NCBI GenBank assembly: GCA_963667725.2
Contig: CAXXHO010000005.1
Location: forward strand, 1,248,001-1,312,000
Length of the DNA: 64,000 bases
Source: Treponemataceae bacterium
Lineage (GTDB): Bacteria; Spirochaetota; Spirochaetia; Treponematales; Rectinemataceae
Direction of reading: 5' to 3'
A program made the position numbers. This document shows, piece by piece, positions 24,001-30,000 of the stretch; the stretch's first letter is position 1; each line of letters begins with the position of its first letter.

Positions 24001-27000
24001 GGCGCCGCCAGTCCTGGCGGCGCCGCCTTGAGGGGAAGGGTGACGGGGCGGTTCGATATGTCCGGCAGGGGGCTCTCGCTCGAGCGGGGCGAAGCCTATC
24101 GGGGAAACGCCCTAGCGGGCGCGGCGCCCATCGTCATCGCCGCTAACATGGAACTCGTCTGGCTGGCGAAATCCCTCGAGTTCGACGCGGCCGAGCTATT
24201 CCTCGTCAAGAACATGGAATTGGGTCCATATTTCGACGCCGTCTGGCTTGCGGGCGGCGGCTCCGGTTCAACCCTGAAGCCTGATGCCTTCAGCCTCGGG
24301 CTCAGCTACGGCACTACCCTGAGTTTCGCCGGCTTGACGCCCATCGATCTGTCGCTTTTCCTGGGCTTGGACAATACGGGATATCCGGTTTTCGGCGTCA
24401 GGGCGGGAAGGCTTTTCCCCGCCGTCAAGTGATATTCTCGTCTTCGCCGTAGGCCGCGTCGTTCTGCGTCAGGGGATTCTTGAAGCGCCAGAGCAGAAGG
24501 GCGATAAAGACCAGGTTGATGACGCTGGCCGCCGCGAAAAGGTTCCATTTCGGATTGCCCGAGGCCACCGACCCCACATAGCTGTGAAGCTTCACCCCAA
24601 TGGTGTAAAGCCTGTCGTCGGTGAGAAAAACGAGGGGAACGAGGAAGCCGTTCCAGGCGGAGATGAAGGCCGTCATCATCGCGGCGGCCAGGGCCGGGGC
24701 GCTCAAGGGAGCGATGATCTTCAGCATATAGGCGAGGGGCTTCATGCCCTCGAGCGCGGCTTCCTCCTCATAGCTCGGAGGCAGGCGATCCAGGAAGGCC
24801 TTCAGCGTAAAGAGTGAAAAGGGCAGGGCGTGGAAGATATACACCGTGACGAGCGGGACATAGCCGCCCAGCAAGCCCATAAGCCTGAAGAGAATGAAGA
24901 GCGGAATGAGGGAATGGACGCCGCCCGTCATTCCTAGCGCCTGCAGGAAGGCGAAGGCCTTCGCCGAGCGCCTGGCCGTCGTCCGCGACAGGGCAAGGGC
25001 CGCCGGCAAGGTGAAGATCGGTAACAAGAGGGCTGTGGTCGCCGCTACCAGGAAGGTGTTGAAAAAGTATCGCAGTATTCCCTCTTCACGCAGAATGGTG
25101 GCGTAGGGACGAAGCGAGATGAAACGCGGAAGAAGCCCGTCTATATAGACTGCCGACAGATCCGAGAACGAAAGCCACAGGACAACGTAGATTACGAGAA
25201 CGGCGGAAGCGACGGCGAAAATTCGCGCCGTCCAGCAGGCCGCTTTCCAGGCGAAGGCCGCCGCTTTGCCGCCGATGTTCGGCCGTACCATCCGCTCTTT
25301 CCCTTCCGGCCGCTTTCTGAGGCGAAACCACAGCCCAACCAGCAATATGACGAGCATTCCCACCGCGACGGCGTATGCCGAAGGTATGCCGTAGTCATTT
25401 TCGTTCCTAAAGGCGTCATAGAGAAAAATTTCGAGCGTGGTCGTCGCCCCGACAATATTTTTTTCGGTGATGCCGCCGATAAAGGGCGGTCCTCCGGCCG
25501 TCATCAGGAAGGGCACCTGGAATTCCTTGAACGACCTCACGAAATCGAGAGCCCACATGACGATGAGCGTTGTGCGGGCTTGCGGCGCCCTTATCCATCG
25601 CGCGATCGTCCAGGAATCGGCCCCGTCCATACTGGCGGCTTCTGTCATGCCGCGGTTCACGGCGCGGAGCGACGCGTAGAGGGCAAACACGACAAGGGGA
25701 ATGCTCAGCCATACGTCGACGGCAAGGGCGGCGACAAAACCGGCCGCTGGATCGGTGAGAAGATTCAGCTCTCTCCCCAGCATGACCGAAAGAATCGACT
25801 TTCCGCCGCTGCCGTGGATGATCATCCGCCAGATGGGCACCGAGATGAAGGATGGCACTCCCCAGGGCACGAGAATGGCCGCGAAAACGATCTTGAAAGA
25901 CTTTCCCGCGTCCAGGAGGACGGAAGCCAGGATGAATCCGATGAGAACGGAGAGGCTGGCCGAGAGGAGGGCCCATCCCAGCGTTATGCCCAGGGAAAGA
26001 ACGAATGCCCTGTCCTCGACGAGGGCTCTGAAATTTTCGAGACCGGCCCAGGCGGCCTGGCCGTAGCTGTCGTGGTAGAGGGAACTGACCGCGGCGGTAA
26101 AGAAGGGTAGTATGCCCGCGGCCAGAACGAGAAAGGCGAGAGGAAGGATGGCCAGTTTCGCCGCCCTGGATCCGCCGAGGATGGACGCCTTCATTCCTTC
26201 CCTAGAAAACGAGATTGATAGACTGGATCTGCTTTACGTTCTTGATCCCTTCGGGCAACCTGGCGATGTTCTTGTCCCAGACGAGGACGAGGGGGAATTC
26301 GCTGGGATCGAGGCCAGCCCCATCCTTGTACATGGCGAGTATGACTTCGTCGTTGGCGTCCAGTTCGCGCGAATCGAGGGTGATCTTGTAGCCGTCGACG
26401 GCGGTTACCTCGACTTTGTAGCCGGCCTTGGCCGCCGCGCTGTCATAAGCATGGATGCTCGTGTCCTGCTTGTGCGGCTGGTAAGCGGGGTCGTCGGCGT
26501 AGCCCAGCAGAAGGTGGAGGGGGAAGCCGGTGTAGCTGCCGCTTATTCCCTTGCGCTCGAAAACGACTTCCTTCTTGTGGCAGCTCACGCAGGACTGCAC
26601 CGTGGCGCGATCCATCGTTCCGTTCATTTTCCCCCCGTAGGAGACGGCGAAATCCTTGAAGTCCTTCTGTTTCACGATGATGCGCTTGATCATCTTGACC
26701 GAGGTGTGGCCGTCGATGTTGGGATCGTTGGGACCGATTTTCACCGTCCTTATGTAGCCCGGATCCTTGGGGAGCCAGTCGCCGTCCATCCTGAAGGCCA
26801 GTATCCAGGTGCCGTCCGCCTCGTCGAGCACTTGCTTGCCGGAATAGGTCATCTCATAGCCGTCGGTGGCCGCGAAGGTTATGGAATCGTCAGCGGAAAG
26901 ACTCATGAAACGGGCCAGGATAGCCCTGAGGCCCACCCCGCCATAGACATTGGAGTACTTTGTCCCGGCGCTGGTCGTGAAGCTTCCCTTGTTTTCCATA

Positions 27001-30000
27001 TATGCCTGATCTTTTTCCAGGTCGGCGAGGGTGTAGGAGGCTTTCACTCCGTTTATATCCAGCTCGAGCGCGAAGGAGGCGGCTTCCGAAACCGCCTTGG
27101 ACGCTGCGAGGCTCGTGGTTATGGAGGCGATCTGCTTGACCCAAAGGCCCTTGGCCGTGTCGCCGACGACCATGGGTCTGTCGAGGGGCTTGCCGGCTTC
27201 GGTATCGGCGAGGATCAGCGCGTCCTGGGCGACATCCTTCGTGGAGAAGGTGGCGGAAAAACCGTCGGCCGCCGAGAGGGTGACTTCATAGCCCTTGGCC
27301 CAGAGTCCGGCGTCGAAGGCATAGGGATGGGAGGAGTCGGAACCGTCGATCATGGCGATAGCGAGGCGGAGGGGAATGCCTGAATAGGTTGTCGCCACGC
27401 CTTTTTTATCCACCGTTTTCTGGACATAATCCTTGCCCGCGGCCTTTATCTTCTGGTAATAGGACTGGGACAGGCTGTCCTTCCTCGCGCCCGCCAGTTC
27501 GATGCTCCAGCCCGTCTCCGCCGCCGAGGCGGCCGATGTCGAGTCCGCCGCTTTCCGCGATACGCATCCGGCGAGAACGAACGCGATGGCGACCGTGATG
27601 GCGAGAATGGTCCTCATTCGTCTAGGCATGGTGTTGCTCCTTTCGCATATTCATGATTACGGCTTCGAGCCGCCGCTTATGGTTCCCAGGTTGGCGTCGA
27701 TGAGACGGCGCGCTTCCGCGAGGGCCGCGTCCGGCTTCATGCTGCCCGCGAGTATGAATCGAAGAATTTTCCACATAGTGTTTTTATAGGTGCTATAGCC
27801 TGAGCTTGGGGGTATGACGGCGCCTATCTCCGCGCTTCTTGCCAAGATGGCGTGATAGGGGCCGTCGCCTTCCGTTACCTCCCAAGCGTCTGAATTCGCC
27901 GGGAGTTTGGAGAGGGCGGTCGAAAAGCGCTGCTGAACCCCGATGCCGGACAGGTGCTCGAGGAGCCTTCGCGCGGTGACCGGGGATTGGGTGGAGCGCG
28001 TCATCGCGAAGCCTTTGAAATCGAGGAGGGGCGCCATGGGCTTGCCCGTGGACGAAACCACCGGATAGGGCGCGACGCCGAAGTCCAGGCCTATCCGTTC
28101 GAACTCGGGGATGGAATAGGACCCGCTCAGGATCATGGCGATTTTGCCCGAAGCGAAACGCGCCACCATGGCGTCGCGCTCAAGGGGCTCCAGGTAGCCT
28201 CGGTCGATCATCGAGAGAATCCAGGATATGGCCTGTCTGGTTCCACGATCGTCGGGACGGACCCCGCCGTCGGCATCGGCGATGGAAGGTTTTCCGAAGC
28301 CCATGGCTATGGGTAAAAGCCAATACGCAGAATAGACATTCCAGGAAATCGGCGTTCCGCCGCTCCGGCTTATCCGCGCGGCCATGGCTTCCAGATCGTC
28401 GGTCGTCCAGGTCAGGGCGGGCGGAACGGGGACTTGCTTTCTGTCGTAGAAAACCAGCTGCGCATCGAAATAGAAGGGAATCGCCCAACGTCGGCTTTCG
28501 GCGCTGAAGGCTGTCGCCCCATTCTCCACGATATGAGAGACGTCGATTCGATCCAGGGGCTGGAGGGTCTGCGCCGCCACGAGGTCAGGAACGTTGTCCG
28601 ATTGGATCATGAGGAGATCGGGCGTGCGCCCGCCGCCGCGCTGGACGGCCAGAAGCTTGGACCTCGTATCCGGTATGTCCACCGCTCTGACTTTCGCGCC
28701 GGAGAGCGTCGCCCAACGTTGGATTTCCGCCTTGAGTTCGGGGACGCCCTCCCAGGAGAGCCAGATTTCCAGTTCCCGCTCGCTGGCCCGGTCTCCGCTG
28801 ATGCTCACGGAACTGATGGAGGCCACCCTGGCATCCGGCGCGAGCAGGTCCCATCCTCCGGAGGACGATTCGACGATATAGAATCCGGAGAGTCTGTCCG
28901 CGAGGTTGTCTCCTATCCATATTTTTGCCCCGGCCGAGCCGGCGCACTCGATCCTCCAGGCTTCCACGAGGGGGGGAAGCAATTCGGAGATGGCGAGGCC
29001 GCGTTCCATGGAGTTCTTCGAGGGGATGGAATATGAAAGCGCGCGTAGCGCGGCGTCTGAGGGTATGGTTTTTGAGCTGCCGTTAAGGCGCAGATCGAAC
29101 GCCCAGGCAGAGGCGTGAAGCGCGAAGGCGAGGCCTAGGGAGAGAACAACCGTCCGGAAACCAGGTCCCGGCGGGTTTGAGCGAGTCATTATTCCCCCTT
29201 TTCAAGCATGGAAGGCTGAACCGTTTCCGGCGCAACCCGATGGCTTTTAGTCCATGGACTTCCGAGGCTCATTGTCATGATGCCGCGTATCTTTAGGAGC
29301 TAAGGCTCGAAGGAATTCTATGGCTGATTCTATGGCGCCCATTCGCAGGCGTCAAGCGGATGAACCTGTCTTGACGGACAGACCCGAGCGCGGGGCGAAA
29401 AAAAAAGGCGCCCCGGATGGGCGCCTTTCGTATCCGATCCGAATCCGATCGGGATCCGACGCTACAGTTTCAGGAGGACGCCGATATAGGAGGCCTCGAG
29501 GCCGGTTTCGGCGTTGATGGCGAAGTTCTCCGAAAGGAAATAGCTCGTGCCGCCGATCGTGTTGAAGCCGACGCTGGGAAGGATCGAAAGACCAAGACCA
29601 AAGTACGAATCGAAGTTGCCGATCCAGGCGAGTTCGCTGGGCAGGTCGAGGGCGCCCCAGTTGAAGTGGAGGGTGCCTACCGCGCCTACCGCGACGTCCA
29701 GGGTGCTGCCGATATAGAGTCCGGCGCGGCCGGCTACGCCATAGGTGAAGGGAAGTTTTTCGGCGATCGTGAACTTGCCGATGGCGTATTCAACGCCGCC
29801 GCCGACCGAAAGGCCGTACCAATAGCCAAAACCGATGCCGACATTCGCGTTTATAGAACCGGGATTAATGAGCATGCCATTTTTGGAATAGTTAGTGGTT
29901 TCCGCGGACGCGAAACCAACGACGACGCAGAGAAGCGCGACAAGCACCGTGAACTTCTTCATTTCCCTCTCCTTTTGCGTGAGACGATCAGGTTGATGCT

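What a model noticed while it worked through the whole genome (the two positions that open the first line are those of the whole stretch)
24425..29324. Moco-riboswitch-controlled ABC importer with a triple PruR-like pterin-binding lipoprotein in a spirochaete that has Mo/ [...]
This genome encodes 11 molybdo/tungsto-pterin-type enzymes on its main contigs (4 AOR, 5 xanthine-dehydrogenase-family large subunits, 2 DMSO-reductase-family) plus cofactor-finishing genes (MobB, FdhD, XdhC, YqeB/YqeC, SelD) but has no MoaA, MoaC, MoaE, MoeA or MogA/MoaB. A Moco riboswitch (C5:1277179-1277324, minus strand) heads an operon of a 510-aa solute-binding protein (g03485: MalE-like core with an extra N-terminal PruR-like domain), a 475-aa lipoprotein made of three PruR-like (cysteine-less SUOX-fold, pterin-binding) domains (g03484) and a fused MalF/MalG-type permease (g03483). 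I propose that it captures and imports molybdopterin/Moco made by other organisms; no bacterial Moco imp [...]
Evidence so far: Six-frame HMM searches of the whole genome: 0 hits for PF01967 MoaC, PF00994 MoCF_biosynth (57), PF02391 MoaE (61), PF03453 MoeA_N (62); only a 12.8-bit sub-threshold hit for PF06463 Mob_synth_C (60); controls ring in 11-13 of 14 model genomes. AOR: 6 hits in G000, 4 on C5 and 2 on co-binned C1/C7; enzyme list from gene tables. Across 69 Rectinemataceae genomes: 30 lack both MoaC and MoCF_biosynth; 17 of these 30 still have AOR; the g03484 lipoprotein is found in 15 of those 17 (not G024, G029), in 0 of the 13 lacking both Moco synthesis and AOR, and in 3 of 39 genomes with Moco synthesis. 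In 10 of 10 relatives' loci fetched (43-95% identity) the order riboswitch-SBP-lipoprotein-permease is [...]
(Added by a program. Inside this text positions count along the whole contig: contig position 1,248,001 is position 1 of the stretch shown here. "Call 12" and the like, gene names such as g00115 and contig names such as C1 are that model's own, and its searches are not shown. The text may have been shortened before it was handed on; [...] marks where a part breaks off. The agent that wrote the report below was given it as the finding of a first reader that could run no searches.)

Follow-up and report, generated by a model that had tools for sequence, protein, structure and literature searches.

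The report
Candidate tungsten/molybdenum cofactor uptake operon
A spirochaete that has tungsten and molybdenum enzymes but none of the genes for making their pterin cofactor carries a three-gene transporter, shut off by a cofactor-sensing RNA and fitted with a pterin-binding-type lipoprotein, that most likely imports the ready-made cofactor, a route I found described for no bacterium.

Summary
A Moco-class riboswitch (RF01055, 54.1 bits, window 29179-29324, minus strand) of the P3-less 'tungsten cofactor' type carries the ribosome-binding site of the first gene in its closing helix. It heads three genes: a MalE-type binding protein with an extra N-terminal domain, a Sec lipoprotein, and a fused MalF/MalG permease. 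The lipoprotein's middle domain is a cysteine-less sulfite-oxidase/PruR fold (Z 15.8); its two outer domains are only distant relatives of it. The genome gave no hit for MoaA-C, MoaC, MoaE, MoeA or MogA/MoaB, but has 6 AOR and 5 xanthine-dehydrogenase-type genes. Among 69 family genomes, the lipoprotein occurs in 15 of 17 that have AOR but no pathway, 0 of 13 with neither, and 3 of 39 with the pathway. One of the two exceptions is an assembly break. Riboswitch and gene order recur in other spirochaetes and in Thermotogota. Two archaeal chromosomes that lack MoaC pair a similar protein with an ECF importer. A complex model supports lipoprotein-binding protein contact (0.73, controls 0.00). Uptake of preformed W/Mo-pterin cofactor is the best reading (about 0.6). 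No experiment supports it yet, and my literature searches found no such bacterial importer.

The parts
29179..29324 (-). Moco/Tuco riboswitch aptamer (RF01055), P3-less variant
   Evidence: cmscan 54.1 bits, gathering score 36, E 3.7e-10; the P3 model positions are deleted. A model built from 14 copies finds 59 copies with 24 of 28 pairs showing changes on both sides.
29187..29198 (-). Expression platform: Shine-Dalgarno GGGGG (29198-29194) and the ATG (29189-29187) of the SBP gene, lying in and just after the 3' strand of helix P1
   Evidence: Sequence. Consensus structure pairs UUCC.UC with GGGGAA. The minimum-free-energy fold pairs AAUUCCUU with the SD. The motif GAAAAGGGGGA plus a nearby start is conserved in 14 relatives.
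27657..29189 (-). Solute-binding protein, 510 aa (P0001): signal peptide, extra N-terminal domain, MalE-type core
   Evidence: SBP_bac_8 residues 167-435, 68.9 bits. Model pLDDT 91.5, pTM 0.87. Core 136-510 matches MalE at Z 41 and TM 0.85 to T. maritima MalE2.
28785..29102 (-). N-terminal extra domain of the SBP (residues about 30-135), fold unassigned
   Evidence: No Pfam hit. hhalign to the lipoprotein domains is not significant, at most 12%. The order of its secondary-structure elements resembles that of lipoprotein domain 2. It contributes residues 75-78 and 131-137 to the predicted interface.
26202..27629 (-). Lipoprotein, 475 aa (P0002), lipobox LAGC with Cys22, three related domains
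   Evidence: Translation; alignment of 42 homologues; model pLDDT 87.2.
27096..27518 (-). Lipoprotein domain 1 (residues 38-178)
   Evidence: hhalign 99.5% to domain 3 and 82.6% to domain 2. Only weak beta-grasp structural matches, Z 5-6. Its conserved TLxAxDGxSATF and LWV motifs form the predicted contact with the SBP.
26664..27089 (-). Lipoprotein domain 2 (residues 181-322): cysteine-less SUOX/PruR-fold pterin-binding-type domain
   Evidence: PF00174, 47.5 bits. VIA Z 15.8, rmsd 2.6, 133 of 138 residues to PruR 7kp2. Z 15.5 and 27% identity to the chicken sulfite oxidase Moco domain. No Cys in the domain. Long hairpin 210-233 with an invariant TTSAGT tip.
26205..26663 (-). Lipoprotein domain 3 (residues 323-475), with the nearly invariant Cys350-His351
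   Evidence: hhalign 95.3% to domain 2. C350 and H351 conserved in at least 90% of 42 sequences, C347 variable.
24425..26194 (-). Fused MalF-like/MalG-like ABC permease, 589 aa (P0003)
   Evidence: Two BPD_transp_1 stretches. MalF match at residues 44-288 and MalG match at 372-567.

Best explanation
The operon is a salvage importer for preformed molybdopterin-type cofactor, chiefly the tungsten form.

Proposed steps:
1. When the cell holds enough cofactor, the cofactor binds the P3-less riboswitch and stabilises helix P1. P1 contains the ribosome-binding site of the first gene, so translation stops. (The structure is shown; ligand and direction are inferred.)
2. When cofactor runs short, the three proteins are made.
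3. The Sec-exported, lipid-anchored protein captures free or protein-released cofactor in the periplasm with its cysteine-less sulfite-oxidase-type domain. (The fold is shown; binding is inferred.)
4. It docks through domain 1 onto the MalE-type binding protein and hands the ligand over. (Supported by a complex model only.)
5. The fused MalFG-type permease, powered by a MalK/MsiK-type ATPase encoded elsewhere, brings it in. (Inferred.)
6. Inside, the MobA-like and MocA-like enzymes and chaperones finish the cofactor for the AOR and xanthine-dehydrogenase-type enzymes.

Because MoeA and MogA/MoaB are absent as well as MoaA, MoaC and MoaE, the imported species should already carry its metal.
For: 1. 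Riboswitch. RF01055 at 54.1 bits, with P3 deleted. Across 59 copies, 89.7% of cells are paired against 71.0% in shuffles, 24 of 28 pairs show changes on both sides, and 0 of 500 shuffles reach the observed values. Only 7 alignment columns lie between P2 and P4 in all 59, so none has P3. Regulski 2008 (PMC2408646, passages read) links P3-less RNAs to tungsten-cofactor metabolism. The SD lies in P1.

2. Own genome. No hits for five pathway families. 6 AOR and 5 MoCoBD_1 hits. MobA-like and MocA-like genes are kept, both below the NCBIfam cut-offs. No ModA over its cut-off. The single PBP_like_2 hit is PstS.

3. Phyletic pattern in 69 family genomes: 15 of 17, 0 of 13 and 3 of 39. G029, one of the two misses, has the riboswitch plus SBP at a contig end. 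All 13 genomes with neither pathway nor AOR also lack the riboswitch. Within one genus, G033 has the pathway and no module, while G034 has the module and no pathway.

4. In 16 pathway-bearing relatives the riboswitch lies within about 2.5 kb upstream of moeA(-moaC) on the same strand (coordinates). The same sensor therefore heads either synthesis or this transporter.

5. Wider spread. 75 loci, of which 57 have the riboswitch. Of the 18 without it, 12 lack the upstream DNA. 64 of 73 bacterial loci show SBP-lipoprotein-permease in order; 8 are cut by contig ends and 1 is rearranged. Downstream neighbours vary, so this is a self-contained module.

6. Of 58 further bacterial carriers, 56 have AOR. 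Of the 50 also tested for MoeA_N, 28 lack both MoaC and MoeA_N. These include all 4 Thermotogota and a closed 3.29-Mb chromosome (G513).

7. Two archaeal chromosomes lack MoaC and have AOR. They place a homologous three-domain protein beside an ECF importer, whose S component is fused to PF00174 in one of them.

8. Lipoprotein. Domain 2 scores Z 15.8 to PruR and Z 15.5 to sulfite oxidase. No Cys in that domain. Lipobox present and no conserved twin-arginine motif. Relatives are large surface proteins with SLH, PKD, CARDB and Big domains.

9. Complex model, SBP with lipoprotein: score 0.73, best of 3 controls 0.00. That mark was reached by 116 of 157 solved complexes and 2 of 215 mismatched pairs. 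The runs agree in at least 71% of contacts, and the partner's pLDDT is at least 82. My own alignments were used, so these counts hold only roughly.
Against: - No binding, transport or expression experiment exists.
- 27 of 78 carrier genomes have MoaC (3 of 18, 20 of 50, 4 of 8 and 0 of 2), so the module is not confined to auxotrophs.
- The carriers are related, so the counts are not independent. The 15 family cases lie in 6 genera.
- In relatives, moeA and moaC sit in one cluster, so a single assembly gap could hide the whole pathway in any one MAG.
- Free Moco is known to be very labile (established knowledge, recalled).
- The genome also has 5 xanthine-dehydrogenase-type genes that normally need Mo, while the switch is of the tungsten type. 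One cargo may therefore not explain everything.
- Domains 1 and 3 and the SBP N-domain have no assigned fold.
- Six distant loci (three Sphaerochaetaceae, one Bacteroidales, two archaeal) have no riboswitch.
- A frameshifted modA fragment sits at the start of contig C7.
- Only 8 of the 15 SBP_bac_11 hits were classified, so an oxyanion transporter is not fully excluded.
- G067 lacks MoaC and MoeA_N, has AOR, and has the riboswitch on a TupA-like transporter instead.
Confidence: 0.6

Rival explanations
1. The system imports a different pterin or an earlier or metal-free intermediate (cPMP, metal-free molybdopterin, or a dinucleotide form that is trimmed), not the finished metal-loaded cofactor.
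For: PruR, the closest small structural relative, binds simple pterins (PMC11194511, passages read). MalE-class SBPs can bind phosphorylated organic ligands: a dinucleotide-binding protein, 7c0f, scores Z 37.9. The archaeal operon includes a calcineurin-like phosphoesterase. The genome has both W-type and Mo-type enzymes, which a metal-free precursor would serve equally.
Against: MoaE, MoeA and MogA/MoaB gave no hit, so cPMP or metal-free MPT could not be finished by known enzymes. 28 of 50 further carriers lack both MoaC and MoeA_N. Domain 2 keeps a long hairpin and shares 27% identity with sulfite oxidase, against 16-20% with PruR, and it lacks PruR's PW motif.
Confidence: 0.15
2. It is an unconventional tungstate/molybdate (or metal-chelate) importer. 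This matches the usual role of transporters placed behind Moco riboswitches.
For: Regulski 2008 reports Moco RNAs upstream of molybdate and tungstate transporters. In relative G067 the riboswitch heads a TupA-like SBP plus permease. No intact ModA, TupA or WtpA was found in this genome, so some metal route might be needed.
Against: The SBP core is MalE-class (Z 41), not PF13531 or PF12849. The permease is MalF/MalG-like. Metal alone is useless to the 43 carriers that lack MoaC and MoeA_N. The accessory protein has a pterin-cofactor fold.
Confidence: 0.07
3. The lipoprotein is a periplasmic Moco/Wco-dependent oxidoreductase (a SUOX-family enzyme, perhaps with Cys350/His351 as a redox or metal site). 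The riboswitch merely couples its synthesis to cofactor supply, and the ABC parts carry its substrate or product.
For: PF00174 hit. 27% identity to the sulfite oxidase Moco domain. Cys350-His351 nearly invariant. Regulski 2008 noted P3-less RNAs before 'putative sulphite oxidase' genes in S. wolfei.
Against: No Cys in the SUOX-fold domain. Lipobox and Sec-type signal with no conserved twin-arginine motif (RR in 4 of 21 N-termini shown). Cofactor-bearing periplasmic enzymes use Tat (established knowledge, recalled). No haem or YedZ-type partner in the operon. C347 is not conserved, so there is no CxxCH. The SD-in-P1 design switches the genes off when cofactor is plentiful, the opposite of what a cofactor-using enzyme needs. 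Carriers without the pathway could not load it.
Confidence: 0.05
4. It imports an unrelated organic solute (for example a sugar or an aldehyde precursor fed to AOR), and the link with the cofactor is only regulatory.
For: MalE/MalFG-class parts. 76 of 78 carriers have AOR, which would also fit a substrate-supply role.
Against: It does not explain the SUOX-fold lipoprotein. It does not explain the enrichment in pathway-less genomes: 15 of 17 against 3 of 28 AOR-bearing genomes with the pathway. It does not explain repression by plentiful cofactor, or the ECF (vitamin-type) version in archaea.
Confidence: 0.08

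Closest known systems
Moco RNA motif (Rfam RF01055), P3-lacking 'Tuco' subclass (Regulski et al. 2008, PMC2408646; passages read)
   Same: Full-length match over the gathering score. P1, P2 and P4 are supported by covariation. P3 is absent. The ribosome-binding site lies inside P1, as described for E. coli moaA.
   Different: The known regulon comprises moa genes, ModABC/TupABC-type transporters and cofactor-using enzymes. Here the controlled transporter is of the MalEFG class and has a SUOX-fold lipoprotein.
PruR, periplasmic pterin-binding protein of Agrobacterium, Vibrio and Klebsiella (PDB 7kou, 7kp2, 7kom, 7rkb; PMC11194511, passages read)
   Same: Secreted, cysteine-less SUOX-like fold. 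Domain 2 aligns at Z 13.9-15.8 over nearly the whole PruR chain.
   Different: PruR is a single domain with a truncated hairpin and a Pro-Trp motif, has a shallow pocket for small pterins, and is encoded with the DcpA signalling enzyme. This protein has three domains, a long hairpin tipped by an invariant TTSAGT, no PW motif, and a transporter context.
Moco-binding domain of sulfite oxidase family enzymes (chicken SO 1sox/3hbg, SorA 2blf, YedY/MsrP 1xdq)
   Same: Fold (Z 11.6-15.5). 27% identity to chicken SO over 140 residues. The motif PGYIRT..GP..GH.SVKM aligns with the SO motif GFPLRVVVPG..G.RSVKW.
   Different: No Mo-ligating cysteine, no dimerisation or haem domain, and Sec-lipoprotein export. 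It is therefore not an enzyme of this family by the features tested.
Riboswitch-controlled cofactor salvage by ABC/ECF importers with accessory capture proteins (for example B12 uptake by BtuFCD/BtuB with surface lipoprotein BtuG; thiamine and other vitamin ECF systems) - recalled, not from a call
   Same: The logic is the same. A sensor of the finished cofactor represses an importer. The module replaces the pathway in auxotrophs and coexists with it in some producers. An extra lipoprotein captures the ligand.
   Different: The cofactor, the protein families and the riboswitch class are all different. No such system for Moco or Wco turned up in my searches.
Dietary uptake of protein-bound Moco by nematodes (PMC7849362, PMC9793310, PMC7619442; search listings and abstract starts only)
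   Same: [quoted passage not shown]
   Different: These are eukaryotes, and the abstracts seen name no transporter. Here a defined prokaryotic transport module is proposed.
ModABC / TupABC / WtpABC molybdate and tungstate importers
   Same: ABC importers that are often behind Moco riboswitches. G067 in this family has a TupA-like one.
   Different: Their SBPs belong to PF13531 or PF12849 and bind oxyanions. This SBP is MalE-class with an extra domain and a partner lipoprotein.

Membership tests
Moco RNA motif RF01055 | Covariance-model score at or above the curated gathering score | tested here: met
   54.1 bits against 36, model positions 1-135 of 135.
Moco RNA motif RF01055 | Helices supported by compensatory changes among relatives | tested here: met
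   59 copies; 24 of 28 pairs change on both sides; covariation score 0.525 against 0.189 in shuffles (0 of 500 reach it) and 0.07-0.13 when slid. The alignment was fitted to the model, which favours the structure.
Moco RNA motif, P3-less (Tuco) subclass | No P3 hairpin between P2 and P4 | tested here: met
   P3 positions are deleted in the window copy. Only GCC-AU(U/C)-GGG in 14 relatives. 7 columns between P2 and P4 in all 59 copies.
Moco RNA motif | Binds Moco/Tuco and regulates expression | not testable with these tools
   Only the design is seen: the SD GGGGG lies in the 3' strand of P1.
PruR family | SUOX-like fold without the Mo-ligating cysteine | tested here: met
   Domain 2: Z 15.8, rmsd 2.6, 133 of 138 residues of 7kp2. 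The protein's only cysteines are C22, C347 and C350.
PruR family | Truncated hairpin with the conserved Pro-Trp motif; single-domain protein | tested here: not met
   No PW dipeptide in residues 181-322. Long hairpin 210-218/224-233 with an invariant TTSAGT tip. Three domains. PruR features are taken from PMC11194511. That the two hairpins are equivalent is inferred, not shown residue by residue.
PruR family | Operon with a DcpA-type diguanylate cyclase-phosphodiesterase | tested here: not met
   The neighbours are an SBP and a permease, and the flanks are patatin and MetNIQ. None of the 54 downstream neighbours in relatives is of that kind.
SUOX-family molybdoenzymes | Conserved cysteine that ligates Mo | tested here: not met
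   No Cys in the PF00174-matching domain. None is conserved there in 42 homologues.
SUOX-family molybdoenzymes | Cofactor loaded in the cytoplasm (cytoplasmic or Tat-exported) | tested here: not met
   Lipobox LAGC and no conserved twin-arginine motif. The Tat rule itself is recalled knowledge.
CUT1/MalEFGK-type ABC importers | MalE-class SBP and MalF/MalG-class permease | tested here: met
   SBP core Z 41.4 to MalE. MalF and MalG NCBIfam matches to the two halves of the permease, both below the equivalog cut-offs.
CUT1/MalEFGK-type ABC importers | A MalK-type ATPase | tested here: inconclusive
   None in the operon. Only 1 of 54 relatives' downstream neighbours is an ABC ATPase, and it is on the other strand. 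Three OB_MalK-bearing genes lie elsewhere in the genome. Which one serves this system is unknown.
ModABC/TupABC/WtpABC oxyanion importers | SBP of the PF13531 or PF12849 class | tested here: not met
   P0001 matches SBP_bac_8 and SBP_bac_1 only.

The most novel reading that the evidence does not exclude
This is the first defined prokaryotic uptake system for the intact tungsten/molybdenum pterin cofactor. It uses a family of surface-exposed, cysteine-less SUOX-derived capture domains. Bacteria couple these to ABC importers, and archaea couple them to ECF importers. If so, Moco and Wco, long treated as too unstable to be shared and as necessarily self-made, would be traded in anoxic communities like a vitamin. 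Many AOR-bearing spirochaetes, Thermotogota and small-genome archaea would then be cofactor auxotrophs.
Probability: 0.5. Interest if true: 0.9.

Novelty: new variant of a known kind. Interest (0 to 1): 0.8.

Why it matters
Moco and its tungsten form are textbook examples of cofactors that each cell must build for itself, because the free molecule is fragile. A dedicated importer would overturn that view for prokaryotes.

It would explain how genomes with several AOR and xanthine-dehydrogenase-type genes but no moa, moe or mog genes can work. It would also add Moco/Wco to the list of traded 'vitamins' that shape anaerobic communities and hinder cultivation.

It offers concrete reagents as well. 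The binding proteins might stabilise and deliver the cofactor, which is of interest for assays and for handling Moco outside cells. The riboswitch-operon pair could be used to test what the P3-less RNA senses.

The hypothesis is directly testable with two soluble proteins and a complementation assay.

Tried and rejected
- Sequence search of the lipoprotein against solved structures: 0 hits at E<=10 with the single sequence. The profile gave only insignificant hits, with SO and SorA at E about 1. The fold had to be shown by structure instead.

- SBP N-terminal domain:
  - no Pfam family even at E<=10;
  - hhalign to the three lipoprotein domains reaches at most 12% probability;
  - the protein atlas gave no usable hit;
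  - the fold-search lists were filled by the MalE core;
  Its 'PruR-like' label stays open.

- Domains 1 and 3: the wide structural search gave nothing above Z 5.3, only beta-grasp and superantigen-like hits.

- Haem-c reading of CVSCH: rejected, because the first Cys is Gly in many homologues and two sequences lack the whole motif. I did not check for cytochrome c maturation genes.

- Sample of 400 other Spirochaetota genomes: 0 matches at E<=1e-20. Yet the pattern scan found carriers in several other spirochaete lineages. The sample and its first-look filter (4 candidates scored per genome) simply missed them, so I draw no conclusion about absence.

- Riboswitch in six distant loci (L128, L130, L132, L135, L133, L134): none with my model and none with Rfam at E<=0.1.

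- Oxyanion transporters: the single PBP_like_2 hit is PstS. The 8 best of 15 SBP_bac_11 hits resemble PhnS2 or thiamine SBPs, and the other 7 were not classified. ModA gave only a frameshifted fragment at a contig end.

- Expression: no RNA holder is listed. One run whose library text says metatranscriptomic cDNA (its RNA status is a guess) holds contigs on 25 of 30 bins, including one 1566-base contig across the lipoprotein gene. I treat this as no evidence either way.

- Earlier scan notes by place and by sequence: nothing.

- Literature searches for a bacterial Moco/Wco importer listed none. PMC6765283, opened for possible Moco cross-feeding, does not deal with it. The search for Marispirochaeta associata gave nothing of use.

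- The MFE fold of the aptamer is not better than shuffles (z -1.53), so the covariance model and covariation carry the case, not the folding energy.

Full report
WHAT IS IN THE WINDOW

The only Rfam family that reaches its gathering score in the 64-kb window is the Moco RNA motif RF01055. It lies at 29179-29324 on the minus strand, with 54.1 bits against 36, E 3.7e-10, and the full model length. In the printed alignment the model positions of hairpin P3 are deleted.

Directly downstream, on the same strand, lie three ORFs: 27657-29189 (510 aa), 26202-27629 (475 aa) and 24425-26194 (589 aa).
- The first matches SBP_bac_8 and SBP_bac_1 from residue about 163 on. It resembles MalE weakly.
- The second matches Oxidored_molyb (PF00174) at residues 209-326, 47.5 bits.
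- The third has two BPD_transp_1 halves, the first MalF-like and the second MalG-like.

No ATPase gene belongs to the unit. The gene downstream is a convergent patatin-like gene. Upstream, divergent, lies an ordinary MetNIQ methionine transporter.

The start codon of the first gene (29189) follows GGGGG (29198-29194). That stretch is the 3' strand of the aptamer's closing helix P1. The minimum-free-energy fold also pairs it with AAUUCCUU at the 5' end.

THE RIBOSWITCH IS REAL AND OF THE 'TUNGSTEN' TYPE

A covariance model built from the window copy and 13 relatives finds 59 copies in the DNA I gathered. On their alignment, 89.7% of cells form standard pairs, against 71.0% in shuffles. 24 of 28 pairs show changes on both sides. 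The covariation score is 0.525, against 0.189 in shuffles (0 of 500 reach it) and 0.07-0.13 when the partners are slid. The alignment is fitted to the model, which favours the structure.

Only seven columns separate P2 from P4 in all 59 copies, and the 14 family copies read GCC-AU(U/C)-GGG there. So none has P3.

Regulski et al. 2008 (PMC2408646, passages read) found that 58 of 176 Moco RNAs lack P3. They also found that 17 of 19 organisms with P3-less RNAs carry tungsten-cofactor-related genes, and they proposed that this type senses the tungsten cofactor. They described the E. coli moaA RNA as a repressor whose platform includes the ribosome-binding site. The design here is the same, so I read it as an OFF switch. 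The ligand and the direction are inferred.

THE PROTEINS

Lipoprotein. It begins with a signal peptide and a canonical lipobox, LAGC, with Cys22. Among the 21 N-termini displayed from 42 aligned homologues, only 4 have an RR pair and no twin-arginine motif is conserved. The protein is therefore exported unfolded and must meet any ligand outside the cytoplasm.

The AlphaFold model (pLDDT 87.2) and the alignment show three domains.
- Domain 2 (181-322) is a sulfite-oxidase/PruR fold.
  - Z 15.8, rmsd 2.6, 133 of 138 residues of V. cholerae PruR.
  - Z 15.5 and 27% identity to the Moco domain of chicken sulfite oxidase.
  - In a search of 48,161 representative chains, the only 10 with Z>=8 are SUOX-family or PruR chains.
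- The whole protein has only three cysteines (C22, C347, C350), so domain 2 lacks the Mo-ligating cysteine.
- The PruR paper (PMC11194511, passages read) describes a truncated hairpin, a Pro-Trp motif and a pocket too shallow for Moco. Domain 2 instead has a long hairpin (210-218/224-233) tipped by an invariant TTSAGT, and no PW. That the two hairpins are equivalent is my inference.
- Domains 1 and 3 are clear paralogues of each other (hhalign 99.5%). They are related to the C-terminal two-thirds of domain 2 (82.6% and 95.3%). Structurally they give only weak beta-grasp matches (Z about 5).

'Triple PruR-like' is therefore only partly right.

In CVSCH, C350 and H351 are nearly invariant but C347 is often Gly. 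This is not a haem-c motif. A metal or cofactor contact is possible but untested.

Binding protein. Its model is confident (pLDDT 91.5, pTM 0.87). Residues 136-510 are MalE-like (Z 41.4; TM 0.85 to T. maritima MalE2). A dinucleotide-binding member of the same class also scores Z 37.9, so this class is not limited to sugars. The extra domain (about residues 30-135) could not be assigned.

DO THE TWO EXTRACYTOPLASMIC PROTEINS WORK TOGETHER?

A complex prediction of SBP 30-510 with lipoprotein 38-475 scored 0.73 (runs 0.73, 0.77, 0.73), against 0.00 for the best of three controls. That mark was reached by 116 of 157 solved complexes and 2 of 215 mismatched pairs. The runs agree in at least 71% of contacts, and the partner's pLDDT is at least 82. 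My own alignments were used, so these counts hold only roughly.

The contact uses the most conserved motifs of domain 1 (residues 115-129 and 159-163). On the SBP side it uses residues 75-78, 131-137, 178-186, 206-214 and 398-404. These include the invariant K178, R184 and Q210 and the nearly invariant R398 and P403.

This supports a hand-over of ligand. It does not show it.

THE GENOME NEEDS THE COFACTOR AND CANNOT MAKE IT BY KNOWN GENES

The assembly has 4.22 Mb in 8 contigs, two of which hold 3.7 Mb. It is 97% complete with 6.3% contamination. Six-frame searches gave the following.
- No hit for MoaC, MoCF_biosynth (MogA/MoaB/MoeA core), Mob_synth_C (MoaA), MoeA_N or MoaE.
- 6 AOR N-domains, 4 of them on the window's contig.
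- 5 xanthine-dehydrogenase MoCoBD_1 domains.
- MobA-like and MocA-like nucleotidyl transferases, both below the NCBIfam cut-offs.
- No ModA over its cut-off, only a frameshifted N-terminal fragment at the very start of contig C7.
- A single PBP_like_2 gene, which is PstS.
- The eight best of 15 SBP_bac_11 hits are PhnS2-like or thiamine-like. Seven were not classified.
- Three MalK-type ATPase genes elsewhere in the genome.

Because the metal insertase is missing too, the cargo should already be metal-loaded.

I did not check the DMSO-reductase family, MobB, FdhD, XdhC, YqeB/C or SelD.

PHYLETIC PATTERN IN THE FAMILY (69 GENOMES, G000 INCLUDED)

The lipoprotein is found in 18 genomes, MoaC in 37, MoeA_N in 36 and AOR in 45. 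Taking 'pathway' as MoaC or MoeA_N gives 39 genomes with it and 30 without.

| Group | Genomes | With lipoprotein |
|---|---|---|
| No pathway, AOR present | 17 | 15 |
| No pathway, no AOR | 13 | 0 |
| Pathway present | 39 | 3 (G014, G015, G052) |

- The 13 genomes with neither pathway nor AOR also have no Moco riboswitch.
- Of the two misses, G029 has the riboswitch followed by the SBP gene on a 5.2-kb contig that ends there. That is an assembly break.
- G067 (88% complete) has the riboswitch in front of a TupA-like SBP and permease. It remains an exception.
- Within one genus, G033 has the pathway and no module, while G034 has the module and no pathway.
- The 15 cases lie in six genera and are not independent.

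In all 16 relatives' loci fetched (G015's contig-end fragment left out) the order is SBP-lipoprotein-permease. The riboswitch is present in 14. The other two contigs end inside the SBP gene. For one of them (G063) the riboswitch and the SBP's 5' half lie on another contig.

THE SAME SENSOR HEADS SYNTHESIS OR TRANSPORT

In 16 pathway-bearing family genomes, an RF01055 match over the gathering score lies within about 2.5 kb upstream of moeA on the same strand, and where present upstream of moaC. The genomes are G001, G003-G007, G016, G017, G021, G022, G024-G026, G031, G033 and G045. I did not inspect the genes in between.

In pathway-less relatives the riboswitch heads this transporter. This swap is what one sees for vitamin riboswitches, which control either synthesis or uptake of their ligand. 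That comparison is recalled general knowledge.

WIDER SPREAD

A pattern scan of one genome per species returned 75 loci. Most are from spirochaete lineages. Four are Thermotogota, one is Bacteroidales and two are Methanobacteriota.
- My model finds the riboswitch in 57 loci.
- 12 of the 18 misses lack the upstream DNA.
- The six testable misses are the most distant homologues, and they also have no Rfam hit at E<=0.1.
- 64 of 73 bacterial loci show the three genes in order. 8 are cut by contig ends, and in 1 (L107) the permease lies upstream on the other strand.
- The gene after the permease varies among the 54 examined: patatin 9, SpoU methylase 7, amidohydrolase 4, CobD 3, and others. Only one is an ABC ATPase, and it is on the other strand. 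The unit is therefore a self-contained three-gene module.

I then tested 50 carrier genomes outside the family. I left out 15 loci that duplicate family genomes, 8 on short contigs and the 2 archaeal ones.
- 20 have MoaC.
- 19 have MoeA_N over the cut-off.
- 28 have neither.
- 49 have AOR.

The 28 without either include all four Thermotogota and a closed 3.29-Mb chromosome (G513). Of the 8 short-contig carriers, 4 have MoaC and 7 have AOR.

Altogether 76 of 78 carriers have AOR and 51 of 78 lack MoaC.

AN INDEPENDENT VERSION IN ARCHAEA

Two Methanobacteriota MAG chromosomes (1.4 and 1.7 Mb) lack MoaC and have 1 and 4 AOR genes. Each encodes a homologous three-domain PF00174 protein (23-31% identity over residues about 40-474). 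It sits next to an ECF importer.
- The S component is of the PF09819 type. In one genome it is fused to a further PF00174 domain.
- There is a double ATPase and a CbiQ-type T component.
- One locus also has a calcineurin-like phosphoesterase.

ECF systems are typical vitamin importers (recalled). The same capture protein joined to two unrelated importer classes argues that it serves uptake.

A profile search of 1.84 billion representatives finds 756 relatives (157 at E<=1e-30). Many are very long, with several copies of these domains. Of 27 long ones scanned, all carry PF00174. Seven add surface modules such as SLH, CARDB, PKD, Big_2/Big_3_5, DUF2341, CBM96 or NosD. This fits an extracytoplasmic binding role.

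MECHANISM AND RIVALS

Best reading (about 0.6): a cofactor-repressed salvage importer for preformed W/Mo-pterin cofactor. The lipoprotein captures it, hands it to the SBP, and it is imported by the permease with a shared ATPase.

Rivals:
- Another pterin or a metal-free or earlier intermediate (0.15). This is weakened by the absence of MoaE, MoeA and MogA.
- An oxyanion or metal-chelate importer (0.07). This is weakened by the protein classes and by the uselessness of metal alone without MPT.
- A periplasmic enzyme (0.05). This is weakened by the missing cysteine, Sec export, OFF logic and lack of redox partners.
- An unrelated solute (0.08). This does not explain the lipoprotein, the link to auxotrophy or the ECF version.

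Points against my reading:
- There is no experiment.
- 27 of 78 carriers have MoaC.
- The genomes are related, and most are MAGs.
- The pathway genes cluster, so one gap could hide them in a single assembly.
- The free cofactor is labile (recalled).
- The genome also has Mo-type enzymes while the switch is of the W type.

KNOWN OR NEW?

I ran five full-text searches on Moco or molybdopterin combined with riboswitch, transporter, salvage, uptake, exogenous, auxotroph, cross-feeding and scavenging. They listed no bacterial or archaeal Moco/Wco importer. They did list uptake of dietary, protein-bound Moco by nematodes (PMC7849362, PMC9793310, PMC7619442; listings and abstract starts only).

The library holds open-access papers and bioRxiv only, so a report in a subscription journal could be missed.

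Earlier notes of this same scan describe the same kind of operon in other genomes and ECF/TonB versions. They are AI notes and not independent evidence. I met the ECF version myself only in the two archaeal loci.

I class the finding as a new variant of a known kind: riboswitch-controlled cofactor salvage by a binding-protein-dependent importer. It has a new cargo and a new accessory protein.

Noticed in passing
G000 contig C5:974706-974866 (-), outside the window; locus L008 1501-1661: A second full Moco riboswitch (52.6 bits) precedes a 237-aa 4Fe-4S ferredoxin-like gene and an AOR gene. Similar riboswitch-AOR pairs appear in relatives by their coordinates (for example G034 C24 and G014 C3). 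Whether this copy switches on or off was not examined.
   Followed up: partly
L138 (G014:C5:316656-316779 +), L140 (G028:C4:44445-44594 +), and G000 C3:227131-227269 (-), locus L009: A Moco riboswitch sits in front of an NAD-type aldehyde dehydrogenase (PF00171) in two relatives. In this genome the match is below threshold, 32.1 bits against 36. This looks like a cofactor-sparing back-up: a tungsten-free enzyme made when the AOR cofactor is short.
   Followed up: partly
G000 contig C7:4-239 (-): A modA-like N-terminal fragment lies at the very start of a 123-kb contig. It is split over two frames and cut by the contig end. It is either a decaying molybdate-binding gene or an assembly error. 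Contig C7 also carries an AOR gene, and its tetranucleotide profile correlates 0.95 with C5.
   Followed up: partly
L133 4722-11059 and L134 4818-10142 (Methanobacteriota MAG chromosomes): A homologous three-domain PF00174 protein is clustered with an ECF importer. The S component (PF09819) is fused to PF00174 in L133. There is also a double ATPase and CbiQ, and in L133 a calcineurin-like phosphoesterase. Both genomes lack MoaC and have AOR.
   Followed up: partly
L137 1964-3620 (G067:C198): In a family genome without MoaC or MoeA_N hits but with 3 AOR genes, the riboswitch heads a TupA-like (PBP_like_2) SBP and a permease instead of the three-gene module. The genome is 88% complete, and this case is unexplained.
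   Followed up: partly
Proteins P0254, P0257, P0265, P0284, P0289, P0304, P0305 and others: Very long proteins (up to 3139 aa) carry up to nine stretches like the lipoprotein's domains. Some also carry SLH, CARDB, PKD, Big, DUF2341, CBM96 or NosD modules. This is a large, unnamed family of surface proteins built from SUOX-derived domains. Their organisms and gene neighbourhoods are unknown.
   Followed up: partly
window 22192-24432 (+): A 746-aa patatin-like phospholipase gene converges on the permease gene. The same neighbour follows the module in 9 of 54 relatives' loci examined. This is probably just conserved local synteny.
   Followed up: partly
window 29417-30049 (+) and 30259-32625 (+): A 210-aa ORF without any Pfam or NCBIfam match lies between the riboswitch and a MetN-MetI-MetQ methionine ABC transporter, which is transcribed away from the operon.
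   Followed up: no
L128, L130, L135 (Sphaerochaetaceae chromosomes) and L132 (Bacteroidales MAG): These are distant versions of the three-gene module (lipoprotein 35-38% identical). They have no riboswitch, and their SBPs match the query only from residue about 138, so they may lack the N-terminal extra domain. An amidohydrolase gene follows convergently in all four.
   Followed up: partly
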